This document shows positions 3 through 46,100 of a DNA stretch of 64,000 bases, piece after piece. The position numbers and the translations under genes were made by a program. The first letter of the stretch is position 1. Each line of letters starts with the position of its first letter. A model generated the notes under the pieces. That model was not told the DNA's origin. It made no database searches and saw only the letters and a list, made by a program, of their open reading frames with translations. This DNA is from a virus: IMG/VR virus record IMGVR_UViG_3300048583_000198, positions 8,443 to 72,442 of that record. One strand, written 5' to 3'.

Positions 3-89
3 GACCCCGACTGGTCTTCGGAACTTCATATTCCGAATGGCGCAAGCTATGGCCAGATCGGTGACCTTCTCAACCGAATCAAGAAGTAG
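3..89 (+). CDS. C-terminal end of DNA polymerase (N4 gp39-like), partial
   Basis: Frame 3 reads DPDWSSELHIPNGASYGQIGDLLNRIKK*, resembling the PxW..EL.IPNGA C-terminus of N4-like DNA polymerases; synteny upstream of nuclease and primase. Confidence 0.55.
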   Translation, partial: DPDWSSELHIPNGASYGQIGDLLNRIKK

Positions 90-94
90 TCCAT

Positions 95-1030
95 ATGGCC
101 TATACAAACGAACGTCGCATCCCGCTATCCATTGCGGTATGGCTCGCCAGGGATATGTATTCACGCGATCCTGCGTACATCAGTGGTAGCGAACTTGAAC
201 GCAGCAATCGTCAGATCGTACTCAGTCGACGTACGACACAGGACATTGACCTTGCTCAGCTAATGGCTGCACGCCTGGGTAATGCGATCAACGATGCTAT
301 CGACGCTGCCTGGAAGAGCGACAGGCTCATGGAGTATGTGCGTCTCGCTGGCTACAACCCGCTGTTCGAGTATGACGTGAATCCCGTCATTCCCGATCCG
401 AAGAAAACTCCGATCTATATCCAGAAGCGGTATGAAGAACCGTTCATGGGTAAAGTGCTTTCGGGCGCACCTGACATGATCCTGGGTGGCCGACTGTTCG
501 ATTACAAGAGCACTGCTGTGTTCCTGTACCAGAAAAAGAAGCCCGAAGACTACTTGTGGCAGCTCACCACATACCGGTACCTGGCTCGTGATTACATCAC
601 TGATGATGTGGCTACTATTCAGTTCATCTTGAAGGACTGGAGCAAAGCTCGAGCCAAGGATCCAAATTACCCACAAACTCCGTGTCCAACGATGTTGGTT
701 CCTGTGGGTTCGGCTGAACAATGTAAAGCTCGGCTTGAGAGTCGCATCAATGAGCTGAACGCTCTAATGTCAGCAGATGACAGCGATTTGCCGCTGTGCA
801 CCGATGAAGAATTGTGGCTTGATCCACCGCGATTCGCGTACTATAAGGATCCCCACGCCGCTCCCAATGCTCGAGCTACACGTGTTTTCGACACGATGAC
901 TGAAGCCGTTGCATTCCAAGGATCGAAAGGTGGTGGGGGCCGCATCGACACACGCAAAGGCGAGCCAAGAGCTTGCGACTACTGCACCGCTTCAACTATC
1001 TGCCAACAGAGGGCTTCATGGAGTACGTGA
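95..1030 (+). CDS. PD-(D/E)XK / Cas4-like exonuclease (N4 gp42-like)
   Basis: SGAPD...DYKS and QLTTY motifs; C-terminal CxxC-x5-C; lies before the primase. Confidence 0.75.
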   Translation: MAYTNERRIPLSIAVWLARDMYSRDPAYISGSELERSNRQIVLSRRTTQDIDLAQLMAARLGNAINDAIDAAWKSDRLMEYVRLAGYNPLFEYDVNPVIPDPKKTPIYIQKRYEEPFMGKVLSGAPDMILGGRLFDYKSTAVFLYQKKKPEDYLWQLTTYRYLARDYITDDVATIQFILKDWSKARAKDPNYPQTPCPTMLVPVGSAEQCKARLESRINELNALMSADDSDLPLCTDEELWLDPPRFAYYKDPHAAPNARATRVFDTMTEAVAFQGSKGGGGRIDTRKGEPRACDYCTASTICQQRASWST

Positions 1031-11704: not shown

Positions 11705-11801
11705 GGATCTTCGTCCGTCTCGAGGCTGTCGCCATCACGGTCCCTGCGCGTGGTGTGCACAGGGCCGTACTCATTCGACTCGTCGTCGAGCCCCTGCTTA
11801 G
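11649..11801 (+). CDS. small basic Cys/His protein
   Basis: GAGGAG then GTG; MSRTIRKK...CRHHGPCAWC; converges on the vRNAP stop. Confidence 0.55.
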   Translation: MSRTIRKKLKGKGKARDGEDLRPSRGCRHHGPCAWCAQGRTHSTRRRAPA

Positions 11802-17800: not shown

Positions 17801-20800
17801 CTTCTCCCATTCACGAAGTACTGAAGCCGGATCATTGATGTCAGTCTTGACGCCAAATGCCTGAGCCAAAGTCATCTGCATGTACTTGGCATGATTCGGA
17901 TCGTCAAGATTCAACTCCTCTTCTGCGGAGGAGAACATGTCACGCACAAACTTGTTGTTCTGCGGACCCATCACGGTCTTGACGCGGTTGTTGATACCGA
18001 TGTGGTACTTGTAGAACAAGCCCTTGGCACCACCCTCCGTTAGCTCGTGGTATTTGCGTACTGCAGCAAACTCCATCGTGAGTCGCTCGTTCTGGCTCTT
18101 GAGCCATTCACGCACGCTCGAGGGAACGGTGCCGTCATCTTTCTCGGGCACAGCGCCATACCAACCGGTGAGAACCTGCTTCATCAGGTCATCGCCCAGC
18201 GTAGTGAACATGCCATACATGTCGCCAAACAGACCATGGCGAACCTTTTGCAGGTTCTCCAGGGCAGTCTGCATCGGTGCAGAAAGCTTCGTCCTGGTGT
18301 ACTGAATCGTGTTGTCGACTTCAGTATGCGGCTCAGACTGCGCTTCCCATACACGCTCACCATCCAGCTGTTCCTGCACAGCGTCGATGGTATTCATATT
18401 GTTCTTAGCAGCGTTCCGGGCAGACTCGGTTGGGACCAGAATCTGCATGGTATCCATGTACGAGGCATCGCTGAGCGTACCGTCCGAGGTCGCCTCCAGC
18501 GTGCGCAGATTCGTGTTGTTCCATGCATCCGTTTCTGGATTGAAGTCTGCCTTCATGTCGAAGTTTTGGGACTCAATCAGAGCAGCGAGCGTTGAGAGCC
18601 CATAAGACAGGAACGTGCCCTGCGAAATGTCGAGGCTGGCGCTACGCTTTGCCGTGACACCGAGCAAGGTCATCGCAACGTCAGCGATATCCTGTGCCCA
18701 CACTTCCTTGAAGATGTCACGCGACAGTCGACCTTGCTCATCGACAAGCTCACCTGTGAACTTGGCGGAGTTGCGGAACATGACGATAGCGCCAGCCCAG
18801 GCAAATGCCTTGATCACTTCGTCAGGCACCGACATCTTGCCGCTCTCTTCTTTCTGCCAGAGTGCGGATGCAACGCCGTACGGCTTATCCAGGTAGTCTT
18901 CCTTACCGGACTGCGCGATATCGAGGATGCCCTGCTGGAGAATGCCACGACGAGTGCCATCCTTGAACTTCGGACCCTTGCCAGCCAGCAGTTGATAAAG
19001 AGCACCGGCCTCACTGCGATAGAGATCGAACGCAGTTGAGGTCTCTTCACCACGGGTAACGGTCATTGACTTGAACTTCTCAAGCCAACCATCAACCGTA
19101 TTCGCTGGGTCGATGTTGAACCACGTGGCCAGACTGTCCCGCGCCCAGCTTGTTACTGCGAGGAGGGGGTTTTGCGTTTGAGGCTGCGGAGCAGATTCCT
19201 GAGCAGTGTTGCTATCAACCCCAGCGTCAGGAACACCAGCAGGCTCTGCTGGAGGATTCTCTCGAGCCAACCTGGCTTCAACATCTCGCTCGTAGGCTCG
19301 GACGGCTTCTCGTTCGGCTGCATCTTCCTTCTCCTGTTCTAGGCGAACTTTCTCTTCTGCAGCCAACTTCTCAGCCGCATCCTTTCGAGCAGCTGCTTCA
19401 GCTGCTTTCGTTTTCTTTTCGTCACGAGCAATCCTCTCTTCTTCAACCTTTTCAGTTGCCTGAATAGCTGCACGCTCAGCACGAGCCTCTCGCTCAGCTT
19501 CCGTTTCAGCCTTTTTCTGGGCAGCCTCCTCCTCAGCTTTCTTCTTGGCTTCAGCCAGGATAGCGGCATTCGGAGATTCTTCCTGAGGCTGAGCAGCAGC
19601 TTGTCGAGCAGCAATGATGGCATCGAGCTTAGCCTTCTCAGCGGCAGCTCGTTCCATGGATGCAGCAGCGAGCTGTGGGGCAGTCTTCGCAACTGTGTCC
19701 CACATGCGCTCAGCTTCAGCAACGTCAGCCAACACTTCATTGACCATGTTGCGGGAAGCTTCAGAACCACGGCCACTGATGTAGATGCGGAATGGATTAC
19801 CCACTCGCTTGCCATCTTCATCTAGCGTGGCAGTGCCTTCGACTTCCACGTAGTTGGTCTTAAGGTATTCGGCGTACTCAGGCTTACGAACGTTCTCAGG
19901 CTTCCTAAGCAAGTCAACAAGTTCGCCAGCCTTCCTGAACGCTTCACCGCGTGCACGAAGATGTTGAAGGAATCCAGCCGCCTTGGTGGCTGCGCCAATC
20001 GGAGCCTTGGTGTCAGATACACCTTCGACACGCAGGGCTGAGGCAATACCGTTGATGTAGTCCAACATGCCACGCTTGCGAGTGGCTGCTTTACCCGTCG
20101 ACCGATTCTCCCAACCCTTGTTGAGGATCTGTTCACGGGTTTCTTCAGTCTTGGAAGTCGGACCAGGACGAGCCACTGCAGCAGGAATCTTTTTGAGTTC
20201 CTGCACGAGCGGCTTCAGAGGCTCAGGGACAGCTTCAATCGGCAGACGGGCAATGTTCACCGCTGCCACTGCCTGCACCGTCTGCTGGGCTTCTACGTCG
20301 CCCTGGTTGGCTGCTTCAACAGCTGCAGCGATCTCTTCGTCGCTCTTCTGAGCAATCTGTGCCTTGGCTTCGTCGATCTTACCGGCAGTTGCCAGTTCCT
20401 CAGATTGAATGATGGCCTTGGCCTGAGCCTCGTCTACTTCACCATCTTCAGTTCGAGTGATGTCAGCACGAGTCTCGAGTGCATTGGCCGTGAGGACAGC
20501 CTCTACATCAGAGTCGGCACTCTTTGCCGGAGCCACTTCACCAACAGGCAGTTTATATGAAGTCGGTTGAGTTGCGTTCTCTTCCGTTGAAGGCTCAGAA
20601 ACGACTGGAGCCGTTTCTACAGCGGGCTCACCAGATGAGCCTGTGCTGTCGGGAACCGTTTCTTCGACTGCCGCCGTAGATTGGATCACCTCCTCGGAAT
20701 TCGGAGTAGCTTCGATTGCCTCAGAAGCAGCCGCAACAGCCGCACCTTCAGGCGTTTGAGCACGCGATTTGAGACCAGAAGCGGCTGCGGCCAGCCCTTG

Positions 20801-21775
20801 ACGCACACCTGCGCCAATAGCCTGAGCTGAGTTCCTGACGAGTCCAGGAGCCCGCATACCACCTGTGAACAGAGAACTGATAACGGCTGCTTCGCCAGTA
20901 GCCGCACCGACACCTTCCATTGGATCTCGACCGGCAAGCACGTTGTCGGCCACCGTTTGACCAATTGCCATGCCGCCTTCTTCGAACACTTCGGCACCGA
21001 TGGCCGAGGCGGTAGGACGGATTGCATCGCCCAGGAACTGGGAAACAACGTTGGTGCGTCGACCCAGCGGATCGAGTTCGAATCCCGGAGTAAGCTTGCC
21101 AAGTACGGTACCCAAACCAGCACTGAATGCACCAGCCAGAAGTGCTTGACGTTCGGCTTCAGCTGGATCACCCGTCTCCTGCAAAGCTCGTTCATACGTT
21201 TGGCCATATGCACCAGCACCTTCCAAAACACCACTGAGTGCAGCCACGCGATTTATAGTAGCGAGTTCACCTGTACCGGTAGCTACACGGCTGAGCACTG
21301 TTGGAACAGCTGCTTTCGAAGCAACACCCATGGCTCGAGCAGCAGGACCGATCATCAGATACGGAGTCTGCGAAGCCACATCAGCAATAACATTACCGCC
21401 GCTGAAGGTGTTGCCTACAGCTTCAACGAAGCCGGCTACTTCGCCTTCTTCAGCTGTAACACGAGCATTACGGGCAGCATCATCTCTACGTTCAGCCAGA
21501 TACGCAGGTGAACGGAGTTGATCAAGAGTCTGTGAGTTTCGAACGGCATCAGCCAGTTCATACGTTGGGAGAGTGGCCAGCGGAATGCTGCCAAGACTCT
21601 GCAACGTATCCAAGATACCAACGGCGGAATCGCCTACCGTGTTGCGATGACGATAGGCATCGTTCTCTCGCAAGGCACCAACAAGGTCATTCGACTCGAG
21701 AACGGATGTGTCACGAAGTTCTGCCGACGACAGCAACTTGAGTTCTGGAAGCGAAGACTTGATGTCGTCAGCCAT
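11798..21775 (-). CDS. virion-encapsidated RNA polymerase (N4 gp50-like)
   Basis: 3325 aa; motif A EIDGKTNG, motif B R..GK....VQYGGG, motif C NVFDG, HELIH; no Cys seen on reading, a hallmark of N4 vRNAP. Confidence 0.95.
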   Translation of the reverse strand: MADDIKSSLPELKLLSSAELRDTSVLESNDLVGALRENDAYRHRNTVGDSAVGILDTLQSLGSIPLATLPTYELADAVRNSQTLDQLRSPAYLAERRDDAARNARVTAEEGEVAGFVEAVGNTFSGGNVIADVASQTPYLMIGPAARAMGVASKAAVPTVLSRVATGTGELATINRVAALSGVLEGAGAYGQTYERALQETGDPAEAERQALLAGAFSAGLGTVLGKLTPGFELDPLGRRTNVVSQFLGDAIRPTASAIGAEVFEEGGMAIGQTVADNVLAGRDPMEGVGAATGEAAVISSLFTGGMRAPGLVRNSAQAIGAGVRQGLAAAASGLKSRAQTPEGAAVAAASEAIEATPNSEEVIQSTAAVEETVPDSTGSSGEPAVETAPVVSEPSTEENATQPTSYKLPVGEVAPAKSADSDVEAVLTANALETRADITRTEDGEVDEAQAKAIIQSEELATAGKIDEAKAQIAQKSDEEIAAAVEAANQGDVEAQQTVQAVAAVNIARLPIEAVPEPLKPLVQELKKIPAAVARPGPTSKTEETREQILNKGWENRSTGKAATRKRGMLDYINGIASALRVEGVSDTKAPIGAATKAAGFLQHLRARGEAFRKAGELVDLLRKPENVRKPEYAEYLKTNYVEVEGTATLDEDGKRVGNPFRIYISGRGSEASRNMVNEVLADVAEAERMWDTVAKTAPQLAAASMERAAAEKAKLDAIIAARQAAAQPQEESPNAAILAEAKKKAEEEAAQKKAETEAEREARAERAAIQATEKVEEERIARDEKKTKAAEAAARKDAAEKLAAEEKVRLEQEKEDAAEREAVRAYERDVEARLARENPPAEPAGVPDAGVDSNTAQESAPQPQTQNPLLAVTSWARDSLATWFNIDPANTVDGWLEKFKSMTVTRGEETSTAFDLYRSEAGALYQLLAGKGPKFKDGTRRGILQQGILDIAQSGKEDYLDKPYGVASALWQKEESGKMSVPDEVIKAFAWAGAIVMFRNSAKFTGELVDEQGRLSRDIFKEVWAQDIADVAMTLLGVTAKRSASLDISQGTFLSYGLSTLAALIESQNFDMKADFNPETDAWNNTNLRTLEATSDGTLSDASYMDTMQILVPTESARNAAKNNMNTIDAVQEQLDGERVWEAQSEPHTEVDNTIQYTRTKLSAPMQTALENLQKVRHGLFGDMYGMFTTLGDDLMKQVLTGWYGAVPEKDDGTVPSSVREWLKSQNERLTMEFAAVRKYHELTEGGAKGLFYKYHIGINNRVKTVMGPQNNKFVRDMFSSAEEELNLDDPNHAKYMQMTLAQAFGVKTDINDPASVLREWEKIRSKHAALAKKVWAARTDQAALLAALKENRDKPYSPRELAALLTYGRILAQDGKGTFTNYLMFEIDGKTNGAFNTELFFGLGVRNGANLEQGGLFLDKQDATYETERDRMREAYESDDFYGRINMRARYHFVKGLADLLKQYPNLINPLKGQLFLLEAAGLIEVLPQTKETPNMSVVFNGERVEVKGLPQVLFRRDAGKLAVIPVQYGGGPTGIKRQLWSDVVRNINLNWIKAKNELDRTTDETRRQQLVAQMGHLETLLRGHESFGMDVKQLSKAKNWDAVRWHRSLDGLASAMSKAYGGEKGRVVQVTNTLVKLTNFAYMMKKVQWDQKLQEWIKAKPENAALLEKYKKTGLYDLSRDEYDRLMSETIDLSFNTLNGPKTVSLNNTDFNPNATSITGLGTSMDANLDSPAPRPVGVSILALLTISGGDASMGVRFFQKAWNATNVFDGIDLKVTDIEAAGTALNEAVWATAGFDILNSFQGMVADMRILLDAATETERNALVDTFNSMQPNEKMFIEDFASWASRFNEAVDEFNQLHREQRTGQEELLAGKHTVYQMGGGGKFNTPGGEVRSSASLDFDFELSLEEDAPRTQVADISEVGPREAGRYPDQYKHPEATRIEDEEGFIDVIMKGPRWRGRNTFTAKPSLVNGMSAGLRRLVKVLQMAADAGVAYDSDKSVHPSAIRMYLRAKRAGIITFESRYSDAELEEKIRENQVLRTDNLQTDDGEPVFRNVRLTGKASVSTVKTDQGLKTSFEVNNKKLDRAAVIAALDAMKWKNAIHRTVWKRIRNLLPADLSVELADTEEAWNNTIEQRGMHKHRFSVTTGVASGSFIMLKVASPSVMLHELIHTIFTRHIDNFFSNINQVPVELRGPINDLVQLMERFKKLPAVGRVGFVQRVMTSYDWHGQPQDELGEMLAYVFTEDAVIEELSPGFVQRVINRVKQILRFIIKIEPANDFYNEAMDVFRSLTDSVPADARLVDGVSTRLSQHVPEDGLATLEQLTEDAYVDLFQRMAQGQNIQLAGVQRENLATQAMAVTAYNLSPEQQRLFTRVYTLLRVGQRSPELEQFVDATFSKHPQKNLFNKSPDVVAAVMALAAVEPTFGAQLNRLWAGRDEQTLADALIDKALNNAQQDSGGNMLNEAISAMLVEKDLEQSYYATVTSRLDRLGNRMMEKLGQKAADAAPRAPQYVDTLLKGIAALTTEKGAAAFGSGLIAAVNTHTDQRWLQDLVAALAGTKGDGRLIYRAHNAMMTAINQTRSMFDNTLPRELSKLFPEDFDGWNTLFEAFGRLDVSVLGSSAAEMYLNDAERRRMITVLESKVDNYIDAQNLGYYLVHRKPKPGIAQELLRNARAIADDLNGRRRTAPDSLVADADQLVTLYAIEYLAASERAKVGQYFRAHPESMDKLVGMLKHVKEAEQQHQRTEYRYVYWKDSLPMSTDPRSSVVIANGIKGAQLEQLGYIKGKKYPQTSGDPESDLYYYSRRYTPPPVFSQGIIATVQQTAMGINYTTAASVTPEVGTMLSNQQVVSYIQRTKGRDSNLVAVFNFQGEVMGYERMLDPTIVRESLKGNNTLLHVSIGKKLGRITEENMARRLNQEAIKLMVNQWKEGKDAGREAEYEMVNSSTDKQVARAWENIPADIKRDLADAFGGPVMVRKDLLANTIGYHNAGALEIYTGDASLNPDTRKILLGLIQTVFAGPKGTQIFLAAEQALKEGVATAKDLIIVRSLVVAYQNFQSAMHLVIANGVPPSRMAKWYRQGMREVQAYNRLQREVIQLRIQIAGTTDDVEKERLRTIQTAKRRSIERLSIYPLIEAGELSDLPEGLEESPSHSYLGDLAGWMNNHLREKVHPKAPTILANALFAKDSTLHDALSKAIQAGDFLARYAIFQHMIENGATVEKARDEVRDELISYQTNPGRMRASLETYGMIWWSQFTLRAQNVLLNRFRKNPFSFFVSQGLGNVVGTPGPLDGAIYERGIDNSTGLDQMWGSPTATIHSKVF

Positions 21776-23919: not shown

Positions 23920-26220
23920 TTACTGGAGTCGAGGAGTCAATGTTATCTCGCTCATGAACTCCACAGGAGCAATTAAGCGGTTTACTAAGGTATCAGTTGT
24001 CGATTGTGTTCGCGCTAACCAGTCTTCAAGTTTTTCAACCGGAGCTAGCCACATTTGAGCAGGTAAAGACAATTCAGGAAAATTCTCTTCCCAAAGTTCT
24101 TCAAGCTGCTTCATTTGAGTTTCACGTTCATCAGCATCTTCGCTCCACTTATCCCACTCTTCCTGGATGAGTTCCATTTCATATTGAGTGTATGCAGCGA
24201 GTCCCCCAAAAATAAATGATGCGGCGCTCATTAATTGTTGTGTAAGAGTGATTGGGGTAATGGGGATGTTTAAATAAATTTGACCCAATTGACCAATGCC
24301 CCAGGTCAATGCGACTGTGACAACAACTTGAACGATAGCCCCCCACACTGAGCCCCATTGTTCTGCTGCCCATTCACCTGCTTCAACGGCCACATATTGA
24401 ACTCCAATAACTACTGCAGTAACTACTACAGCAGTCAAAACCGTTGCAATTGCTGTTGCAGCGGCAATACTTAAAGTAGCTGGTAGCGCAGAGTAAATAG
24501 CTCCGTACAAAGCACCAACGGTCGGTCCCAGTGATCCAAGACTAATCACCGTAATTACGAATGAAAAAGCTAACGTTACAAATTGAAAAAAACCGGTTTG
24601 ATACCACTTTTCTTTTACGACTTTGTAGCAGTTAAAAACAATATGCAGCGCCTCTTGGGCAAGTTGTAGTTGTTCTCTTCCAGAAAGAGTGAGATAAGTT
24701 TCCATCTCAAGTGGAATAAGAAAACCAGTTCCAAAATCTCCATCGGGGTCGTTGAAAGCGTCCCATACGCCACTCGAAACGTATTTACCTTTGTAGACAT
24801 AGTTTTCATGCCAAAGGCCGAAAATCATCAGCTCGGCATACGTTGATTCGGTAAGTCGCTTACGGATGTAAAACTTCGTGAAGTCGTAAGTTACTCGTTG
24901 AGTACCTTTACCTTTCCCGTAAGTAACTTCTTTTACAGAGTCTGTATCCCTACTGACTTCTGTTTCATAGGGTTGCGCTAAAGCTCCCGACTTTTCTTCA
25001 TAAGTCATGTAACGCCAAGCAATTTCCATATTTACACATGATCCTGCGGTTTCCGGATCAGTGATAGAAATGCTTTGAGAAGGGCAGATGTTGACTGATC
25101 GAACCGAAATAAAGTTGTACTTCGGATCTTTGTACGTGGGAATTTTTTCGTACCACGCATCAAAAAGCGGTTTGTTGTCGGGCAAACTCAATCGTAAACG
25201 ATTAAAGTAATTCCAGTGATATTCGTGAGCACACTGATTTGGTGATGCGATTTTTGTGCCTGGTTGAATAAACACATAGTCAATTTGCCCCTCATCTGGG
25301 CTTTCTTTGATTTGTGAAATCAAAGTAGGAATTTCTACACCAAGCTTACGTGCATACACTTTGCTCGTTTTGTACGAACTAGTGTTTTTCCAAACACTTT
25401 CTGGAGGCGGTGAACCGGCATTCGAATGGAACTGCCACTCGTCAAACCAACGGTTGTTCTTCTTCAAAACAAGTCCTGGGAAGGTACCCGAACCATTTGT
25501 AGAAATGTTTTGAAGGAACAAATTTAATTGCGCATCTGACCCACCTTCAGTATAGGAAATCGTTTGTGTAGGTCCGCCTGCTACAGAAATTTCAATAAAT
25601 AGACGAGATTTGATGAGATCATCTTCGGTACTGAAGAGAGTTTTCAAATACCACTCATCAAACGTGACAATCGTTGTATCAGGCTTTGTGAAAGTGAGAC
25701 GCCAACCATATTCATCAGGATGATTAATAGGATCATCTTGAATAGCAAAAAGCGCCAACGTCGAATCAACAGGAATACCAAATACTGTGGTGTGCACTCT
25801 TTGTAATGCAAAATCGTAGTTGTATTTAGTTTCAACTTGTTGATGCACAATTGTTTGATGATTTGTAGTGCGAACAAGCGCAACAGATTTCAAATCAATA
25901 GAGCTTGGTGCATAGAGTGCTGTTAAATATTCAAGAGTCAGTACAGCAATCACATCTGGATCAGCAGAGTTGCTAATGTGAGCCAAACCGATGGGCAATC
26001 CTGAATAGTAGGATTTAGCTGCGTAAGCGTAAGCTTGCCGCAGCTTTATCCCTAGCCCATCAATGATGGCTTTCTTGATTGCAACTGGTGTGTTTTGATT
26101 CTGAAGTTTAGAACCAATGACAGCAGTTTCAATCATGTCCGGAATTTTGTCCAACTCCGGACCCAACGGATAAATTACAGACGAGACGTAAATTGTTTCG
26201 TCACGGCTGAACAGTCCCAT
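23920..26220 (-). CDS. virion structural protein (gp53-like)
   Basis: MGLFS...YVSS start, VKEKWYQTGFF, hydrophobic C-terminal region. Confidence 0.75.
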   Translation of the reverse strand: MGLFSRDETIYVSSVIYPLGPELDKIPDMIETAVIGSKLQNQNTPVAIKKAIIDGLGIKLRQAYAYAAKSYYSGLPIGLAHISNSADPDVIAVLTLEYLTALYAPSSIDLKSVALVRTTNHQTIVHQQVETKYNYDFALQRVHTTVFGIPVDSTLALFAIQDDPINHPDEYGWRLTFTKPDTTIVTFDEWYLKTLFSTEDDLIKSRLFIEISVAGGPTQTISYTEGGSDAQLNLFLQNISTNGSGTFPGLVLKKNNRWFDEWQFHSNAGSPPPESVWKNTSSYKTSKVYARKLGVEIPTLISQIKESPDEGQIDYVFIQPGTKIASPNQCAHEYHWNYFNRLRLSLPDNKPLFDAWYEKIPTYKDPKYNFISVRSVNICPSQSISITDPETAGSCVNMEIAWRYMTYEEKSGALAQPYETEVSRDTDSVKEVTYGKGKGTQRVTYDFTKFYIRKRLTESTYAELMIFGLWHENYVYKGKYVSSGVWDAFNDPDGDFGTGFLIPLEMETYLTLSGREQLQLAQEALHIVFNCYKVVKEKWYQTGFFQFVTLAFSFVITVISLGSLGPTVGALYGAIYSALPATLSIAAATAIATVLTAVVVTAVVIGVQYVAVEAGEWAAEQWGSVWGAIVQVVVTVALTWGIGQLGQIYLNIPITPITLTQQLMSAASFIFGGLAAYTQYEMELIQEEWDKWSEDADERETQMKQLEELWEENFPELSLPAQMWLAPVEKLEDWLARTQSTTDTLVNRLIAPVEFMSEITLTPRLQ

Positions 26221-32786: not shown

Positions 32787-34328
32787 TCAAACGATGTAAC
32801 TGGACAGCCCTGAGGGCTGCGTCGGCTGCAAAGTGTCCCACATTGTCGGGATGTGTGGCGGACTTTCCTCAACCGCCATGATACCCGGCTTTTGGGGGAC
32901 AATGTGAATCAACCGACTTGTGGCGTCAATACAGTCGTCATGTTTAGACTTCAAACCTTGCGGCGACGCCAAATGGAACTCATGCATCAGCTCCTTCAGT
33001 TCCTTAATTTCCTTGAACTCGAGCGGGAAAATGATCTCCCCGCCCTTGAGCTGGGGCAGAACGTTCATGAAGTAGGCCAGCTTGTTGGCGGTCGGACGGG
33101 TCTCGATGATGTTGAACCAATACTGGTGTTCAACCATCTTCTCTCGGATCCAGGAAACAAAGCCATACTGCTGACCAGCCACCTCGATGGTCACGCCCAG
33201 AGGGCGGTACTTCAGGGCCAACCGGAACAGTTCTTTGATGTTCAAGTCCATGGTCTGGCGAACCACCATACCTTCGACCCAACGCCACTTTCCGTCGTTA
33301 CCATAGGCCCAAACAAAAATCACTGAGAAGTCATTCTTCAGTGACGCCTTTGTAGCGAAGTCGGTCGTGATGTAGTACGTGTACTTCTGCGGAAGCGGAT
33401 GCGGTTCAGCATTGCCCCAAGTGATGTCGACAGGACGCACCAACTGGTTTTCTTCGTTGGTGATCCGCAGCATCATTTCCTGGTTAAAGCCATTGGGACT
33501 GGTCTTCGATTGATCCATGCAGTAGTCGTAGGTAAAGCGGTCGGGCCACGCACCACGAAATTCTTCTCGAGAGCAAGGCCACTCTTCGCACACTGGCCAT
33601 ACGTTCACGTCCCAGTGACCGGATTCAACCGCTTCAATCAACGGATCATTCTTGTTGAATGGCGTTCCGTTCCAGATGATTTTGTGTCGGCTCGGATGCA
33701 GAGCGTACGGAATTTCTTTCGTGATCAAGTTGCGAATGTCGCTCATGATCGTCGGAGATGCTGCGTCTTTGTCGTCCTTGATAAGGTCGTCCAGGATCGC
33801 AATCACCGGTCGGCTTGTACCGTCACGACTACCGCGAACCGAAGACTGAGCACCGTACATCTGGATGTGGAAACGATGCCCTTCTCGGTTGATCAGCGTG
33901 ATGTGGTCATCACGAAACTCAGCATCAGGGATCCAATACTGCAGAAACTTGCTGTTGTTGTACTTCAATTCTACGTTTTTGCGTAGCTGAGCCACGCCTT
34001 TGTCCATAGAGTTACCAACAAAGATGGCTGCAGGAACATCTCCAAAATCAGGGATTCGACCGAAAACACCCAGGTAAAGTACCAGATATTCCGAGAAAAG
34101 CGTCGTTTTTGCGCTACCGCGGAAGCACAGATTCACCGTACGTCGACTTGGTGTAGGCACCTTGTCGAGCATCATCAGGTGAATCACTGGAGTTTCGTTC
34201 TCTTCTGGAAACTCTGCTGAGACCAGCTTGATGAAGTTCACAAACTCAAGAGAAAAAGCACTCGGAGCGTACTGGTACAGGACGCTGTAGTTCACTTCAT
34301 TGAGAAGATCTTCGATGCTCTTCAACAT
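32787..34328 (-). CDS. terL: terminase large subunit (N4 gp68-like)
   Basis: FRGSAKTT Walker A, ILDDL Walker B, GTPF, TDFA, HDDCID; TAATG overlap gives start 34328. Confidence 0.93.
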   Translation of the reverse strand: MLKSIEDLLNEVNYSVLYQYAPSAFSLEFVNFIKLVSAEFPEENETPVIHLMMLDKVPTPSRRTVNLCFRGSAKTTLFSEYLVLYLGVFGRIPDFGDVPAAIFVGNSMDKGVAQLRKNVELKYNNSKFLQYWIPDAEFRDDHITLINREGHRFHIQMYGAQSSVRGSRDGTSRPVIAILDDLIKDDKDAASPTIMSDIRNLITKEIPYALHPSRHKIIWNGTPFNKNDPLIEAVESGHWDVNVWPVCEEWPCSREEFRGAWPDRFTYDYCMDQSKTSPNGFNQEMMLRITNEENQLVRPVDITWGNAEPHPLPQKYTYYITTDFATKASLKNDFSVIFVWAYGNDGKWRWVEGMVVRQTMDLNIKELFRLALKYRPLGVTIEVAGQQYGFVSWIREKMVEHQYWFNIIETRPTANKLAYFMNVLPQLKGGEIIFPLEFKEIKELKELMHEFHLASPQGLKSKHDDCIDATSRLIHIVPQKPGIMAVEESPPHIPTMWDTLQPTQPSGLSSYIV

Positions 34329-34819
34329 TAGCCGATCACTCGCCAACGGCTCGAAGTCGTGTCATACCAAATGTCGACTGCTTGATTTGGCGTAAGTGTG
34401 AAGTCTGCGGAGCCTGGGCAAAGAAAACGATTGGCTGCCGTACTTGTAACGTCGTGTTTTAGTACGCAGTTAAATCCACCCACGTTGAGTAGCGTGAGTC
34501 GTGTGCGAGAAGGTTGAGCAGTGATGCCCGTAAGATCTCGAGCTGCATCCGTGCTAAGACGAATCTCAGCAGCTGTTGCCAGATTGGTGGGATTCCAATC
34601 ATTTTGATTGGCAATGAGCTGGGATGGAGAAATTACCGCTACACGATTGCCATTTTGTGCAACACCGAGCGGACCTAGTTCAGCTCCAGTGTCGTCAATG
34701 ACAAACAAACCTGCTGCAGTAAAATAGATTTTCCAATCGCCTGTAGTCGGCGTACTGGGAGGAACACCAACTTCATCAAATTTGATTACCGGGATGTTTG
34801 CATTTTCAAGGGAAGCCAT
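34328..34819 (-). CDS. tail-associated hypothetical protein
   Basis: Beta-rich, ends WYD..SSRWRVIG like fibre-tip domains. Confidence 0.6.
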   Translation of the reverse strand: MASLENANIPVIKFDEVGVPPSTPTTGDWKIYFTAAGLFVIDDTGAELGPLGVAQNGNRVAVISPSQLIANQNDWNPTNLATAAEIRLSTDAARDLTGITAQPSRTRLTLLNVGGFNCVLKHDVTSTAANRFLCPGSADFTLTPNQAVDIWYDTTSSRWRVIG

Positions 34820-41217: not shown

Positions 41218-41952
41218 TTACCAACCGCTAGGATACCAGCTGTTACCGCCGCCACCCCCACCTGCAGCCGGAACAATCGTCGTCCCGTTGAAGTAGAGAT
41301 AGCCGGTAACACTCATCTCCGCGATGGCCGTGAGTCGCGGCGATGCTTCTTGCGACGCTTCTTGGGCGGCTTGGGCTGCTCCAAGGGGGTCGTATCTAGC
41401 ATCGGCGTCCGCTCGAGTCGGGATGGATCCAGCTGCTCCAACTCCAAGGGCTCGCTTGGTGAAGGTGTCAGCTCCGGTTTGTTCAAGGACTCCTGCCGAC
41501 GAGTCCAAAGCCGCCAACGCGCCCAGCGTTGCGTCAATGCCCTGGTACCGCGCATCACCTTCAAGGAGGACGAGGTACTGAGGGTGTGGATCTGCGAGCC
41601 CTTCATGCGCAGCCACCGCCGCAGCCGGAGCCGCCGCTGATGCGTAGAGACTCGAACCTTCAGCAGCAGTGAGGTAGTTGGGATGTGGATCCGCTGCCAA
41701 AAGATGCGCGGCCATCGACGCGGATGTTGCTCCCAGAGCTTCAAAGAGCGCCGCAGCCTCGGAGTTGGTGAGGTATTGTGCATGTGGATCACCTAGTGCT
41801 TCATGGGCTGCAACCGCAGCTGGGCCGCTGCCATCGTCGGCAGCAGCATACAGTTCTTCGAAGTTCGCATTGATCTTCTCGTACGCCTGGTCTTTCCAGT
41901 CTGTACGTTTGAAGTCGAACTTGTCGTTGATGCGAAGATAGCGTTGCGCCAT
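41218..41952 (-). CDS. short tail fibre-like protein
   Basis: AYEKINANFEELY attachment helix; three AAH....DPH..YL repeats. Confidence 0.7.
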   Translation of the reverse strand: MAQRYLRINDKFDFKRTDWKDQAYEKINANFEELYAAADDGSGPAAVAAHEALGDPHAQYLTNSEAAALFEALGATSASMAAHLLAADPHPNYLTAAEGSSLYASAAAPAAAVAAHEGLADPHPQYLVLLEGDARYQGIDATLGALAALDSSAGVLEQTGADTFTKRALGVGAAGSIPTRADADARYDPLGAAQAAQEASQEASPRLTAIAEMSVTGYLYFNGTTIVPAAGGGGGGNSWYPSGW

Positions 41953-41958
41953 GGCTGC

Positions 41959-42576
41959 TTACTTCGCAACCCAACCGGCACCGTCGTCGTCAACACCACC
42001 ATTCATGTTGTCGTACGTCCAGTTGCCTTGAGTCGTGGTCTCGGTCGTTTCGATGAGGCTACCTGCCGCACCTGGGGTGTTCGCCGTGACAACCATCGTG
42101 TCGCCAGCGCCAGCCGCTGCAGTGACAGTCGCATGCGCAACCGTACCGGTGCCATAGGTCGTACCCGCACCCGCCGTACCGTTGATGGCAGAGATGAGAT
42201 TGTCGAGAGTGGCTGAAGGATCGACACCGATGAGAACATCACCGGCTGCATTGAGCAAAGTCTGGAACAAGTACACGCGACCGTCGATGGTCACCTGCTC
42301 ACCCGCAATCGGGTTGGCACTCAGCGTGTAGGTGTTGGTCGCGGCTACCGGGGCACCCGCAGCTTCGCGGATGTACAGGGTCGTACCGGCCCCGCCGTCC
42401 TGGCGCAGATACATCGTGCCTTTGGGACCAGCCGCTGCGCCGGGGGCACCGTTGCCCCAGCTCACCTTCCCGTACAGCTCAGCGAACATCTCGTTGATCT
42501 TCTGGTAGGCCGAACGCCGGAAGTCCAAGAGATTGAAGGCAACAGGGGTAGACGCACTGAGCACTTGACGGGCCAT
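41959..42576 (-). CDS. virion appendage protein
   Basis: AYQKINEMFAELY helix; G.G.P.....GT.YLR.DGG motif; GAGG RBS. Confidence 0.65.
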   Translation of the reverse strand: MARQVLSASTPVAFNLLDFRRSAYQKINEMFAELYGKVSWGNGAPGAAAGPKGTMYLRQDGGAGTTLYIREAAGAPVAATNTYTLSANPIAGEQVTIDGRVYLFQTLLNAAGDVLIGVDPSATLDNLISAINGTAGAGTTYGTGTVAHATVTAAAGAGDTMVVTANTPGAAGSLIETTETTTQGNWTYDNMNGGVDDDGAGWVAK

Positions 42577-42612
42577 GACACACCTCAACACCGTGGCAGG
42601 AAAGCTAGGACG

Positions 42613-43296
42613 CTACTCTACCTTGTTGCCTTCAATTAGCAACGGAGTTCGATTAAGGGAGACATTAGCGACGCTTTTCACGTTTCCGCCACTTTGAATG
42701 GCGGCCAACTGACGTTGAGCCAACTCAGTCATCATGACCTGCAGTTCCTGCATGCCACCCTGGTTCTGCGTCACTTCCAGCTCGATCTTCGCGGCTTCTG
42801 GTCGCTTGATGTGGGCCAGCAGCTTATCTGCCGCCTCGGCTCGAGTGCGGGGGCTGGTATCTTCGTTCGTCATCACGTCGACCAGGGTCTTGATGGCCTT
42901 GTGCGCCTCATCCTGGTAAAGCATGTAAAGCGGGATGGTCGACTGGGCCAGCAACTTCTGGACCAGCACGCCCTTGTGGTACGCGGCGACATGGCTCGAG
43001 ATGCGCTGCTCGTCATACCCTTTGGCCACCAGTTCCTGATAGCGGTCGGCCAACGCAATGCTATACGCCTGCTGATTGTTATGGCCCATCTGCTTGAGAG
43101 ACACATACTTGATGGCAGTGGTGTACTGCTCCATAGAGTAGGTGCCCTCGCGCAAGATGTTTGCATGCGTGAGCCAATTCTCACGCACGAGATCGGCCCC
43201 GTCAGATTCGAGGCCGTTCAACATCGAGACTAGCTCCTGGGAAGCCCAATTGCGCTTGCTTCCCAGGGCTAGTTGTACCTGCTCGGTCGTAACCAT
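42613..43296 (-). CDS. N4 gp69-like protein (putative terminase small subunit)
   Basis: Y..A.KYVS.K.MG, AY.K..LV..L, R.EAA..LL.H.KRPE. Confidence 0.7.
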   Translation of the reverse strand: MVTTEQVQLALGSKRNWASQELVSMLNGLESDGADLVRENWLTHANILREGTYSMEQYTTAIKYVSLKQMGHNNQQAYSIALADRYQELVAKGYDEQRISSHVAAYHKGVLVQKLLAQSTIPLYMLYQDEAHKAIKTLVDVMTNEDTSPRTRAEAADKLLAHIKRPEAAKIELEVTQNQGGMQELQVMMTELAQRQLAAIQSGGNVKSVANVSLNRTPLLIEGNKVE

Positions 43297-43604
43297 TACG
43301 CAGGAGTTGCCGTCAGGCTGACGAGGGCACTCGGAGCGGTCGTGTCTTCGACCACAAACACAGTCTCGAGCGGAGCCGAAGAACGGCCCTTCGTGTCGAC
43401 CACGGTGCCACGGAACGTCCAGATACCGAAGTCGAGATCGGTGACAGGGATGCTGTTCACTTCCGCGCCAAACGTACCGATCGGTGCCCAGTCAGCACCG
43501 CCATTCGCGCTCACCTCGATGGCGACGTGCGCAATGTCAGCAACCGCCAGGGGCTTGCCAGACTCACGAGTGGTGGGCAGTGCCCAGGAGAGAGTGATGT
43601 TCAT
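43296..43604 (-). CDS. fibronectin type III-like protein, no signal peptide
   Basis: ITLSW.LPT.R.SG.PL, DL..G.W.FR..VVDT.GRSS. Confidence 0.75.
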   Translation of the reverse strand: MNITLSWALPTTRESGKPLAVADIAHVAIEVSANGGADWAPIGTFGAEVNSIPVTDLDFGIWTFRGTVVDTKGRSSAPLETVFVVEDTTAPSALVSLTATPA

Positions 43605-43606
43605 GT

Positions 43607-43759
43607 TCAGTTACCTTCGTGTGTTGCAGAGAGATTCTTGAGGGGACTCGGGTTCGACTTGTTCTTTCCGCGTTCAAGCCAGTTGAACAGTCGTTCCAGC
43701 GCCAGCAGCAATGTTACCCACAATCCGCCAGTGCCGCTGTCAATTTTGTACCAGACCAT
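43607..43759 (-). CDS. hidden 50-aa ORF overlapping the upstream FN3 gene
   Basis: GGAGG 7 nt before ATG 43759; MVWYKIDSGTGGLWVTLLLALERLFNWLERGKNKSNPSPLKNLSATHEGN; fills the 43605-43713 gap. Confidence 0.55.
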   Translation of the reverse strand: MVWYKIDSGTGGLWVTLLLALERLFNWLERGKNKSNPSPLKNLSATHEGN

Positions 43760-44238
43760 GTGACAGCCTCCAAGGCTACCTTGTATTTTCCATTGACCGT
43801 CTGAGTTGCATCACACACGGTACCGATCGGCACGGTGTGAGACGTAGCAACGACGGTGATGTTGCCACCCGATCTGAAGAACGTGTACACCTTGTTTGTC
43901 TTGGTAGTGAATTCAGTTGGTGCGATGGTTTTCTCCACCGTGATGAATTCACTGCGGTCGCCATCAGCGTTCACCGCTGCAAGGCTGAACCACCAGACGC
44001 CTGGAGCCAGTCCCGTAACAGTGTGAGTGAGTGGGGTAAGCGGCAAGTCGACCCGCTTCTGGCCGTACGTCATGTTGTACTTGGCCAGATTGGTGAGCAA
44101 CGTGCCATCACAGTTACGAGTAGGAGCCGTCCAAGAAAGATCGGCTGTACCGGCACGGGCAGTAAGGGCCATTGCCAACAGGACCATCCCAAGCATGCCG
44201 AACATCACACCGTGGAATACTCGTCGTACAGAAAACAT
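43714..44238 (-). CDS. secreted FN3-like protein with Cys-containing C-terminal domain
   Basis: GGAGG RBS; Sec signal ending ARA; LSWTAPT.N.DG..LTNLA.Y...YG, GLAPG.W.F...AVN..G..S. Confidence 0.75.
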   Translation of the reverse strand: MFSVRRVFHGVMFGMLGMVLLAMALTARAGTADLSWTAPTRNCDGTLLTNLAKYNMTYGQKRVDLPLTPLTHTVTGLAPGVWWFSLAAVNADGDRSEFITVEKTIAPTEFTTKTNKVYTFFRSGGNITVVATSHTVPIGTVCDATQTVNGKYKVALEAVTWSGTKLTAALADCG

Positions 44239-44264
44239 GTGAACCTCCGAATTCAGTAACAAGA

Positions 44265-44446
44265 CAGGCCCTCTGCAGAGATCGTAGCAAGGGACGCAAA
44301 GCCTCACGTTAGGATGCCCTTCTGACACATTTCCTTCCGTAAAACTCTCCACTCAGTTCCCTCCAGAGCAACGCAGGGGTCAAGCCCTTTGTCATGACGC
44401 GCTGGAGCAATCTGTACATGGGGGAGTCCATGCTGCAGAGGGCCTG
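44265..44446. repeat. 182-nt element closed by a perfect 14-bp inverted repeat
   Basis: CAGGCCCTCTGCAG at 44265-44278 and CTGCAGAGGGCCTG at 44433-44446. Confidence 0.8.
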
Positions 44447-44448
44447 AT

Positions 44449-44874
44449 TCATCTCAACGCCTTCAAGTTGATCACCGACCCTGGTTTTGTGTTCGCCGGT
44501 AGAGTGAATTCAAAGACGTTTGATCGTCCAATAGGGGCATCATCCATTCCGATAACTGTCGCAACATAGCACCAGCGTTGACCAATAGGAACGTAATTGA
44601 TTCGCCCCAGGCTCTGTCCAGCTGCGATGTTCGTGCCACCTTGCATGTCTTTTAGCAAAGCAGCATCCCTTGAACATGTTCCATACATTACCTGGGTATG
44701 CTTGAAATCCTTACGCGGCACGAGCGCAACGCCATCTGCCCAGCGAAACACAGCAGGTATCGTGACATTAACCGAAGCTGTCTTTGTCTGGGCACTACAC
44801 TTGTCCATGACGAATAGCGTCGTCAACATGATGGCTGCTGTGACGACAAATCCAAGAAAGGTAGGACTCTTCAT
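44449..44874 (-). CDS. secreted or membrane-anchored divergent FN3-like protein
   Basis: Hydrophobic N-terminus; DG.AL, YGTC, WCYVATV, RSN. Confidence 0.6.
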   Translation of the reverse strand: MKSPTFLGFVVTAAIMLTTLFVMDKCSAQTKTASVNVTIPAVFRWADGVALVPRKDFKHTQVMYGTCSRDAALLKDMQGGTNIAAGQSLGRINYVPIGQRWCYVATVIGMDDAPIGRSNVFEFTLPANTKPGSVINLKALR

Positions 44875-45086
44875 TACAGTTTTCCTGTGAGACGGATTTT
44901 CCACACTGGTTCCCATTCTGGATTGACTAGCGTGCAGAAGCCTATCGCCAGCTCCTGGATCCAGATGTTGAGCCGCATTACCGGCATGAGCCAACCAGCC
45001 CTAGGGCAAAGCTGTGGACTACCGCTGTACGGGTTGTTGATGAGCACCGGACAGAAACCAAACCAACCTTTGTGGGTGTACTTCAT
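44874..45086 (-). CDS. hypothetical protein
   Basis: Overlapping start and stop with both neighbours. Confidence 0.65.
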   Translation of the reverse strand: MKYTHKGWFGFCPVLINNPYSGSPQLCPRAGWLMPVMRLNIWIQELAIGFCTLVNPEWEPVWKIRLTGKL

Positions 45087-45280
45087 TCAGGTGCGTCCTG
45101 TTCAAACTTCCGTTGGGCCACGTTTGCCGCTGCGTAGATCGTCAGGGCTAAGGTCGACAAGGCTACGTATGTGCCGCCGTCGATTTTCCCGATGAACAGG
45201 GCTATCGCTCCCGTCACCTGAACGAAGACGCTCTGTTGGAACTTTGTGCTTTTCCAGTTGGTTGTGTCGTCCATCTTCAT
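45083..45280 (-). CDS. putative holin (two hydrophobic segments, Met-Lys-Met start)
   Basis: WKSTKF, two hydrophobic stretches, charged C-tail; GGGAGG RBS. Confidence 0.6.
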   Translation of the reverse strand: MKMDDTTNWKSTKFQQSVFVQVTGAIALFIGKIDGGTYVALSTLALTIYAAANVAQRKFEQDAPE

Positions 45281-45456
45281 CCTCCCAGACATCCCACCCT
45301 GTTCGCATGTACTTGCGCCATGCCGGATTGCTCACCCGCACTCCAGCGGTGTTGGTCTTTGCTTCCGGGAGCAACGGCGGAGCTTCAGTTTCACCCTGGT
45401 TCGGGCTTTGCGACCCGAGTTCCCCACGCCTGCGGAGCAACCCTTTGTTGGCCATG

Positions 45457-45687
45457 TCAGAGCGCATTCCACTCATCCTCGGAGCCACCACTGAATCGTG
45501 GGGCGAGGTAGAGCTTACCGTCTTTCCGCTTCACGTAGCCATGCTTTTCGAGCGTCTTGGTCCGGAGGAATGCAGCCACTGCTGTCACCTGCAGTTCCTT
45601 GCCAAGCACCGCATACGATGCGTCAACCCAACAACCCTTGCACCACTTGGCCAAGAGGTTGACGAATGCCAGTTGCTTTACATTCAC
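45457..45687 (-). CDS. small winged-helix DNA-binding protein
   Basis: SY..LG.EL.V....A......LE..GYV.R pattern; GAGG RBS. Confidence 0.65.
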   Translation of the reverse strand: MNVKQLAFVNLLAKWCKGCWVDASYAVLGKELQVTAVAAFLRTKTLEKHGYVKRKDGKLYLAPRFSGGSEDEWNAL

Positions 45688-45715
45688 GTGCTTTGTCCTC
45701 CGTTAAGGTGAAGTG

Positions 45716-45744
45716 ATTCTGCATGAGCCCGTGATATTTAGCAA
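45716..45744 (-). promoter_or_regulatory. sigma70-like late promoter at the head of the late operon
   Basis: TTGCTA-17 nt-CAGAAT; shares ATGCAnAAT with the 27943 promoter. Confidence 0.5.
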
Positions 45745-45829
45745 GAGACTTAACGTCCATTTTTTGAGGTTGAATTTTGGTCAGGTGGGAGTTTGAGAGT
45801 TTGAGACCTTCAAACTCGAAACCTCCCCC

Positions 45830-45860
45830 CCGGATTACACGTGCACTACGTGCACATCGG
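45830..45860 (+). promoter_or_regulatory. vRNAP-type hairpin promoter P1
   Basis: CCGGATTACAC GTGCAC-TAC-GTGCAC ATC GG; template-strand loop C-GTA-G; +1 at 45859 by N4 spacing. Confidence 0.7.
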
Positions 45861-45890
45861 ACCAACCTCGGTCCTTCCATGGAGTTCATC

Positions 45891-46100
45891 ATGTCCCTCA
45901 TCAAGACCGCCTTCTCTGGCATGGTCCAGAAGATGCAGCTCGAGAACGCACTGCAGCTGCAGAAGCACCAGCACCTGCGTCCTCCGCAGATCCGACTGCA
46001 GATCGCACAGGGCCTCACCGCCATCGACGAGCAGCTCGCAGCTGACACCAAGCTGAAGAAGCGCTTCGACACCATCACGCTCACGTTGCCCACAACCTGA
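45891..46100 (+). CDS. early protein 1
   Basis: GGAG RBS; first ORF after P1. Confidence 0.7.
   Translation: MSLIKTAFSGMVQKMQLENALQLQKHQHLRPPQIRLQIAQGLTAIDEQLAADTKLKKRFDTITLTLPTT

What the first reader, a model, noticed from the sequence alone, without database searches (positions are those of the whole stretch)
43296..44874. FN3 cluster with strand A moved to the C-terminus: possible donor-strand polymer
Seen: three FN3-like genes. Their mature domains start at the strand-B motif (MNITLSW; signal|GTADLSW; signal|QTKTASVNV) with no preceding strand A. Two end in a strand-A-like motif (TAPSALVSLTAT; TKPGSVINLKAL). A hidden 50-aa ORF (43607-43759, own GGAGG) has a hydrophobic helix followed by the same motif (SNPSPLKNLSAT). 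The third FN3 protein ends instead in a separate Cys-containing domain. Known: FN3 strand A has a P..P.NL.A consensus, and donor-strand complementation builds bacterial pili from Ig folds. Inference: the genes could encode an anchor peptide, chain subunits and a capping tip that assemble head-to-tail in the envelope or on the virion, perhaps for superinfection exclusion or lysis control. Caveat: 43296-43604 has no signal peptide, so it may not share a compartment with the others.
Basis: partly seen in the sequence, partly recalled or inferred. Interest (0 to 1): 0.75.

Follow-up and report, generated by a model that had tools for sequence, protein, structure and literature searches.

The report
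Split FN3 gene cassette in phages
An N4-like phage carries a widely conserved three-gene cassette in which a small fibronectin-type domain is encoded without its first strand, that strand sits on a tiny upstream helix peptide (the two are one gene in some relatives), and a look-alike copy of the strand at the domain's tail co-varies with it, hinting at strand-plugging between proteins; its use to the phage is unknown.

Summary
On the minus strand lie D (44449-44874, exported, Ig/FN3-like), C (43714-44238: signal peptide, FN3, Cys-pair domain), B (43607-43759, 50 aa) and A (43296-43604, 102 aa FN3). AlphaFold models and fold searches show FN3 cores made of strands B to G only. C-B-A is a cassette conserved in many uncultured phages. 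D is not part of it.

B is real. I found it in 18 distinct loci, always directly before A. In 5 loci and 8 further database proteins, B and A are one reading frame. So B plus A is one helix-plus-FN3 unit, cut in the turn between strands A and B.

A's C-terminal motif is kept in all members, fused ones included, so strand A has not simply moved. The N-terminal and C-terminal motifs co-vary within each protein at protein level (0 of 20,000 shuffles reach the observed score). This is compatible with strand donation, but no binding was shown.

A head-to-tail anchor-chain-tip polymer remains unproven. A has no export signal, whereas C and D do.

This scan noted the same cassette before on other DNA (e1-5989085). 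Its function is unknown.

The parts
44449..44874 (-). D: 141-aa exported Ig/FN3-like protein. It ends in a Pro-Gly-Ser-Val-x-x-hydrophobic motif. It is a window-specific neighbour, not part of the conserved cassette.
   Evidence: ORF and N-terminal hydrophobic segment. Only 4 homologues; tail residues P131, G132, S133 and V134 are invariant. Weak profile match to C over the signal plus first 40 residues (prob 67%). Atlas look-alikes are FN3/He_PIG/Big_9, TM 0.52-0.58.
43714..44238 (-). C: 174-aa exported protein. Signal peptide about residues 1-29 (44152-44238). Six-strand FN3, residues 30-105 (43924-44151). C-terminal beta domain with two invariant Cys, residues 106-174 (43717-43923).
   Evidence: 92 homologues. 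Alignment A4 has invariant W36, P39, G80, S96, C142, V159 and C173. AlphaFold pLDDT 90.2, helix 4-23, strands from residue 31. Residues 28-105 align to solved FN3 domains from their residue ~12-14 on, Z 8-9.1. The C-terminal domain has no clear match.
43607..43759 (-). B: 50-aa peptide. Amphipathic helix (about residues 13-30), basic stretch, then a strand-A-type motif P37-x-x-L40-x-x-L43 (43622-43651). It overlaps the end of C by 46 nt. Its stop lies 2 nt before A's ATG.
   Evidence: Homologous ORFs at the same place in 17 other distinct loci. Alignment A3 has invariant P37 and L40, near-invariant W27 and S38. Fused in frame to A in L007, L012, L013, L020, L029 and in 8 of 8 database proteins of 132-148 aa.
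43767..43771 (-). Shine-Dalgarno GGAGG of B, 7 nt before its ATG.
   Evidence: Read from the sequence.
43614..43618 (-). Shine-Dalgarno-like GAAGG of A, 9 nt before its ATG, inside the last codons of B.
   Evidence: Read from the sequence. In most relatives AAGGAG lies 8 nt before A's ATG.
43296..43604 (-). A: 102-aa six-strand FN3 starting at strand B, with no signal peptide. Conserved C-terminal motif P91-x-x-L94-x-x-L97 (43305-43334). Its stop overlaps the ATG of the gp69-like gene by 1 nt.
   Evidence: AlphaFold model of a fused relative: pLDDT 89.6, strands B to G, tail at pLDDT 85-94 without a strand call. FN3 fold matches at Z up to 9.9, starting at strand B of the solved domains. Homologous to C's FN3 (prob 76%, E 2.2e-5).
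42613..43296 (-). Context: N4 gp69-like protein, annotated as terminase small subunit in some records. It is the next gene downstream.
   Evidence: phrog_2109, E 5e-58. 463 phage records match, among them 'N4 gp69-like'.
45083..45292 (-). Context: 69-aa ORF with two hydrophobic segments (holin-like). It is the first gene of the same-strand run. It is joined by a 4-nt overlap to a 70-aa ORF (44874-45086), which overlaps D's ATG by 1 nt.
   Evidence: Only weak or unnamed PHROG hits, so the holin role is inferred.

Best explanation
C, B and A form a conserved, translationally coupled phage cassette.

B plus A is one functional unit: a membrane-seeking N-terminal helix, a strand-A-type segment and a six-strand FN3 core. 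In this phage and most relatives it is cut into two polypeptides in the turn between strands A and B. In some relatives it is a single chain.

Most likely (inferred), B's C-terminal segment lies against the free edge of A's strand B. This holds the FN3 at the cytoplasmic face of the inner membrane. C, a paralogous six-strand FN3 with a disulfide-type C-terminal domain, is exported.

A's conserved tail is a second copy of the strand-A-type segment and co-evolves with the first. So the two probably fit the same site. That allows strand plugging between subunits, but this is not shown.

The use to the phage is unknown. My best guess, at low confidence, is an envelope-associated accessory function expressed with the lysis and late genes.
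For: Shown:
- ORFs, overlaps and ribosome-binding sites.
- No minus-strand terminator-like site in 42500-45800.
- A family: 53 homologues with fixed ends.
- A C homologue lies directly upstream in 13 of 15 distinct loci that have at least 700 nt of upstream sequence. It is missing only in L012 and L013.
- Of 26 distinct junctions, B is split in 18, fused in frame in 5 and unclear in 3.
- 8 of 8 representatives of 132-148 aa are helix + motif + FN3 fusions.
- The P, S and L codons of B's motif vary synonymously between loci.
- FN3 fold from strand B on.
- Co-variation of the N- and C-terminal motifs: same-locus mean score 22.45 against 16.87 across loci. This was a subset of 20 of the 27 loci and proteins that had both motifs; I dropped 7 near-duplicate loci myself. 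0 of 20,000 shuffles reach it, and the protein's own tail is the top scorer in 7 of 20. All 27 give 20.52 against 16.55, again 0 of 20,000.
- At amino acids identical between the two motifs, 18 use the same codon and 36 a different one. The likeness is therefore at protein level, not a recent DNA copy.

Inferred from standard knowledge (recalled): FN3 topology, and the positive-inside rule for the helices that are followed by Lys/Arg.
Against: - In the AlphaFold model of a fused relative, the N-terminal motif is not a strand (pLDDT 58-74, no DSSP strand). Only 5 of the 40 alignment rows cover it.
- C, and the giant tandem-repeat relatives, lack any strand A. The six-strand core may therefore need no complement.
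- Among split loci alone the co-variation is not significant (n=8; 3041 of 20,000 shuffles reach it).
- B evolves fast: 122 non-synonymous against 45 synonymous codon changes, and differences at codon positions 1/2/3 of 91/54/95.
- Part of B's motif (Lys-Glu) coincides with A's Shine-Dalgarno sequence, which could explain its conservation.
- No expression or binding data.
Confidence: 0.6

Rival explanations
1. One reading: a head-to-tail donor-strand chain. The tail strand of one subunit fills the empty strand-A place of the next. B acts as membrane primer, and C (or D) as tip or partner.
For: - The tail motif is conserved in all family members.
- It co-varies with the N-terminal motif at protein level.
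- Only about 5 residues separate strand G from the tail motif. By FN3 topology (recalled), this points the tail away from the protein's own strand-B edge and towards a neighbour, as in covalent FN3 tandems.
- A solved phage precedent for a sheet completed in trans exists: Tuc2009 BppU hairpin with BppA domain 2 (PMC4742702, passages of section 8 read).
Against: - A and B have no export signal, whereas C and D do.
- D is not conserved with the cassette.
- Fused relatives already carry their own N-terminal motif.
- The model's tail shows no strand pairing.
- No oligomer was modelled or measured.
Confidence: 0.2
2. The six-strand FN3 is self-sufficient. B is an independent small membrane peptide, or mainly a coupling leader for A's translation. 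The two similar motifs are docking tags for one common third partner (host or phage), not strands of the FN3.
For: - Relatives with no strand A at all.
- The N-motif is not modelled as a strand.
- A's Shine-Dalgarno sequence lies inside B's motif, and even fused relatives keep an internal Met with an SD-like sequence.
- B's helix region diverges fast.
Against: - Recurrent in-frame fusion places the motif where strand A belongs, 8-10 residues before strand B.
- The spacing Pro-x-x-hydrophobic-x-x-hydrophobic is the same at both ends.
- No third partner is known.
Confidence: 0.15
3. Recoding: a -1 frameshift or a short hop at the B/A junction makes a fused B-A protein in the 'split' phages too.
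For: - A lies in the -1 frame of B in all 18 split loci.
- In the window, the last sense codon of B (AAC) recurs 5 nt on, just before A's ATG.
Against: - 0 of 18 split loci have an X XXY YYZ heptamer where a shift would give a fusion.
- In the window that stretch is 4 nt, and A's frame is closed by TAA two codons before its ATG.
- The length of A-frame left open upstream varies from 2 to about 40 codons.
- The common 4-nt and 1-nt gene overlaps give this same phase anyway.
- A has its own SD.
Confidence: 0.04
4. Artefact: a broken gene or an assembly error splits one ORF.
For: Fused forms exist.
Against: The split occurs at the same turn in 18 distinct loci from different samples. Start, stop and SD are kept while the surrounding DNA has diverged.
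Confidence: 0.01

Closest known systems
Fibronectin type III domains (Pfam PF00041), including those of phage tail proteins such as lambda J / T1 tail tip
   Same: - Beta-sandwich fold with strands B to G: Z up to 9.9 to solved FN3 domains, among them the T1 tail-tip chain 9l9p_S at Z 9.3.
- Conserved Trp in strand B.
- C homologues reach the Pfam cut-off.
- Weak hits to phrog_31 and to Tip attachment protein J.
   Different: - Strand A is absent from the polypeptide: Pfam matches start at profile position 13-17 of 84.
- These are small free-standing proteins, not parts of tail fibres.
- One is exported; the other is tethered by a separate or fused helix.
Tuc2009 baseplate: BppU C-terminal beta-hairpin completing a sheet of BppA domain 2
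   Same: A phage beta-sandwich (titin-like composite domain) is completed by strands from a separately encoded protein.
   Different: - There it is a two-strand hairpin at a C-terminus joining virion baseplate proteins, seen in a crystal.
- Here it is a single N-terminal strand on a micropeptide, non-virion by inference, with no structure.
Donor-strand complementation and exchange in chaperone-usher pili (Fim/Pap; from my own knowledge, no paper read here)
   Same: An Ig-like fold lacks one edge strand that another polypeptide could supply. A spare strand on each subunit could chain them.
   Different: - In pili the missing strand is the last (G). Subunits are periplasmic and need a chaperone and an usher.
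- Here the first strand is missing, A is not exported, and no chaperone or usher relative was seen among the neighbours scanned.
Gene fission and fusion pairs (Rosetta-stone principle; recalled)
   Same: Two adjacent ORFs in some genomes are one ORF in others, which implies one functional unit.
   Different: The cut lies inside a single small domain, between two strands of one hairpin. The usual cut lies between domains.

Membership tests
FN3 fold (fibronectin type III superfamily) | Beta-sandwich of the FN3 type by structure comparison | tested here: met
   - Model of fused A relative: Foldseek top hits are FN3 domains. VIA Z 9.9, rmsd 2.0, 76-78 aligned.
- C residues 28-105: Z 8-9.1, rmsd about 2, 69-74 aligned.
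FN3 fold (fibronectin type III superfamily) | Seven strands A to G in one chain | tested here: not met
   - Models show six strands, B to G.
- Solved FN3 domains align only from their strand B on (e.g. 4m6a 15..92, 1ten 815..891).
- Hence I call it an FN3-fold variant, not a canonical FN3.
Pfam PF00041 fn3 | HMM score at or above the gathering cut-off (25 bits) | tested here: inconclusive
   - Window A and C: no PF00041 hit at E up to 1.
- C homologues: 5 of 6 reach 25.7-29.0 bits; P0111 has 24.9.
- 4 fused B-A proteins: none.
Chaperone-usher donor-strand systems | Subunits exported; missing C-terminal G strand; dedicated periplasmic chaperone and outer-membrane usher | tested here: not met
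   - A has no signal peptide.
- The missing strand is the N-terminal one.
- None of the 19 window proteins scanned, cluster and neighbours together, matched a chaperone or usher family. This is a limited sample.
Trans-completed beta-sandwich joints of phages (Tuc2009 type) | Strand(s) of one polypeptide hydrogen-bonded into the sheet of a domain on another | not testable with these tools
   - Only indirect support: in-frame fusions in relatives and motif co-variation.
- No coordinates of a complex were available.
Programmed -1 ribosomal frameshift sites | Slippery X XXY YYZ heptamer in the zone where both frames are open | tested here: not met
   0 of 18 split loci. In the window the zone is 4 nt.
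N4-like phages (Schitoviridae), genome context | Giant virion RNA polymerase gene and gp69-like gene | tested here: met
   - gp69-like by phrog_2109 (E 5e-58) and 463 phage records.
- A 3325-aa ORF at 11798-21775 was judged by size only, not searched.

The most novel reading that the evidence does not exclude
The cassette builds a strand-exchange assembly of FN3 beads at the inner face of the cell membrane. The helix peptide B primes or caps the first bead. Each bead's tail strand, kept matched to its own first-strand motif by selection, plugs into the next bead. This would be a pilus-like joining principle working in the cytoplasm of a phage-infected cell.
Probability: 0.15. Interest if true: 0.85.

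Novelty: new variant of a known kind. Interest (0 to 1): 0.55.

Why it matters
If B really completes A, this is a natural, evolutionarily stable split of a single small domain at one hairpin, with fused and split versions side by side in nature. That makes it a ready-made system for studying fragment complementation and gene fission.

If the co-varying tail strand plugs into neighbours, phages would have a pilus-like joining principle outside the virion and outside the periplasm.

The cassette is common. 55 small and 8 fused clusters at 50% identity are among the best 150 of 2191 hits. It carries no annotation, so even a modest functional result would name a sizeable family of phage proteins.

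Four literature searches found nothing on it. Supplements were closed and many journals are not in the library.

Tried and rejected
- Complex prediction on A (alignment A1) with B (alignment A3) gave score 0.00, 'no answer'. The controls were not run and the partner's own fold was uncertain. I draw nothing from it.
- DNA search of 42000-46000 and a protein search of C against the phage records: no match.
- A single-sequence scan of viral contigs with A found nothing. The profile scan did.
- Pfam and PHROGs on A, B, C, D gave nothing beyond weak phrog_31 hits.
- PDB sequence search with the A2 profile gave only weak PKD, Asp-box and tail-J hits. The N-terminal columns fell out of the profile, so it could not test the strand-A assignment.
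- C's C-terminal domain: no clear fold match, but it was never folded alone.
- The tree of 20 A domains was too weakly supported to count fission and fusion events: 2-3 changes, and one origin is not excluded.
- Canonical frameshift rejected.
- Recent DNA duplication or conversion as the cause of the N/C motif likeness rejected.
- PHROG scan of ten other window proteins named only the large terminase and a structural protein. No endolysin or spanin was found there.
I therefore cannot say where the confidently placed tail (pLDDT 85-94) lies.
- I did not use the look-up of sequencing runs or read laying.
Full report
**Context.** The window is 64 kb of a 72.4-kb virus record.
- It has a 3325-aa ORF (11798-21775).
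- It has a gp69-like gene (42613-43296: phrog_2109, E 5e-58; 463 phage records, many of them Schitoviridae).
- I therefore read it as an N4-like phage.
- The finding lies at the head of a long minus-strand gene run, in this order:
  - a 69-aa ORF with two hydrophobic segments (45083-45292),
  - a 70-aa ORF (44874-45086),
  - D (44449-44874),
  - a gap that holds a 47-codon ORF and an inverted repeat,
  - C (43714-44238),
  - B (43607-43759),
  - A (43296-43604),
  - the gp69-like gene.
- The genes are joined by 4-nt, 1-nt and 46-nt overlaps or by a 2-nt gap.
- No terminator-like site lies on that strand between 42500 and 45800.

**The observation.** It is correct, and it is a property of whole families.
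- A has 53 homologues of 100-106 aa. All begin at the strand-B Trp motif, and all end in Glu-Asp-Thr-x-x-Pro-x-x-Leu-x-x-Leu.
- C has 92 homologues. Two Cys in the C-terminal domain are invariant.
- D has only 4 homologues.
- AlphaFold models are confident: pLDDT 89.6 for a fused A relative and 90.2 for C. Both show six strands.
- Fold searches return FN3 domains, with Z up to 9.9 and 9.1. The alignments start at strand B of the solved domains.
- 5 of 6 C homologues reach Pfam fn3's cut-off, but only from profile position 13-17 of 84.
- A and C are homologous to each other, including the segment after strand G (prob 76%, E 2.2e-5).

**The cassette.**
- Profile scans gave 9 viral and 20 metagenomic loci, plus L003 found with C.
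- A C homologue lies directly upstream of A in 13 of 15 distinct loci that have enough upstream DNA.
- The flanking genes differ between loci: spanin-like genes in L003, glycosyltransferase-like genes in L008-L011 and L023, gp69-like in the window and L014.
- So C-B-A travels as a unit. D does not belong to it.

**B is real, and B plus A is one unit.**
- A small ORF with an N-terminal helix, a basic stretch and Pro-x-x-Leu-x-x-(Leu/Val) ends at A's start in 18 distinct loci.
- The Pro, Ser and Leu codons of the motif vary synonymously.
- In L007, L012, L013, L020 and L029 the same elements are in frame with A.
- All 8 representatives of 132-148 aa among the best 150 database hits are such fusions. 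The 55 of 100-107 aa start at strand B.
- The cut therefore falls in the turn between strands A and B.
- A has its own Shine-Dalgarno sequence. This is usually AAGGAG, formed by the Lys-Glu codons of B's motif; in the window it is GAAGG.
- A frameshift is unlikely. No slippery heptamer occurs in 0 of 18 loci, and the window has only 4 nt where both frames are open.
- Most B helices are amphipathic. Two are hydrophobic enough to span a membrane.
- Lys/Arg follow the helix. By the positive-inside rule (recalled), this puts the FN3 on the cytoplasmic side.

**The tail.**
- Fused relatives have the motif at both ends. So the tail is an extra copy, not a relocated strand A.
- Within each protein or locus the two motifs resemble each other more than motifs from other members do.
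  - Mean best ungapped BLOSUM62 score is 22.45 against 16.87, on my subset of 20 of the 27 loci and proteins with both motifs (7 near-duplicates dropped). 0 of 20,000 shuffles reach it.
  - All 27 give 20.52 against 16.55, again 0 of 20,000.
  - Fused proteins alone (n=12): 24.33 against 16.81, 0 of 20,000.
  - Split loci alone (n=8): 19.62 against 17.89, 3041 of 20,000, which is not significant.
- In the window the two decamers share 6 of 10 residues.
- At identical residues the codons are the same in 18 cases and different in 36. So this is protein-level co-evolution, not a recent DNA copy.
- The simplest reading is that both segments fit one site.
- By FN3 topology (recalled), a segment that follows strand G after about five residues points away from the protein's own strand-B edge. 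It points towards where the next domain of a tandem array would sit. That favours action in trans.

**Against over-reading.**
- The model of the fused relative does not place the N-terminal motif as a strand (pLDDT 58-74). Few alignment rows cover it.
- The tail is confident (pLDDT 85-94) but unpaired. I had no coordinates.
- Giant bacterial tandem-repeat relatives and C have no strand A at all. The six-strand core may therefore be self-sufficient.
- A and B lack export signals while C and D have them.

**Known parallels.**
- A phage sheet completed in trans has been solved for Tuc2009 (PMC4742702, section 8 passages).
- Pilus donor-strand complementation is the textbook case (recalled).
- I found nothing in print on this cassette (listings and abstracts only for those papers).
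I saw it only after my own analysis.

**Verdict.** The split-domain cassette is real and conserved. Complementation of A by B is likely. Chaining is possible. The function is unknown.

Noticed in passing
window 44265-44278 and 44433-44446: Perfect 14-nt inverted repeat with 154 nt between the arms. It fills the gap between D and C and overlaps a 47-codon ORF (44309-44452).
   Followed up: partly
window 41218-43296 and 32787-34346: In relatives the gp69-like gene is followed at once by the large terminase gene. Here it is followed by ORFs of 210, 244 and 859 aa; the 244-aa one has weak matches to tail and baseplate PHROG families, and the 859-aa one matched no PHROG family. The large terminase lies about 8 kb further down (phrog_38, E 2e-78).
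   Followed up: no
L008-L011, L019, L023 (e.g. L010 4354-4443): Just after A lies a 29-aa, extremely Lys/Arg-rich ORF. A glycosyltransferase-like gene of about 250 aa follows.
   Followed up: no
proteins P0151-P0299; P0176, P0204, P0297 read: The A-type domain also occurs in giant proteins with up to 35 matched stretches. In the three I read (388-797 aa), the copies are separated by long Gly/Ser/Thr/Asn-rich linkers, and each copy begins at strand B with no strand-A segment.
   Followed up: partly
window A residues about 30-39 (43488-43517): The strand C region reads like an Asp-box (Ser-x-Asp/Asn-Gly-Gly-x-x-Trp). It gives weak matches to Asp-box segments of sialidases.
   Followed up: no
window 24001-26000: G+C drops to 0.419 against about 0.53-0.58 around it, inside the 766-aa ORF 23920-26220.
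   Followed up: no
L003 5245-5860: An Rz-like ORF with an embedded lipoprotein-like ORF (spanin pair) lies directly upstream of the C homologue. I judged this by eye only.
   Followed up: no
L018 2390-2495: B looks degraded here. The helix part and the motif part lie in different frames.
   Followed up: partly
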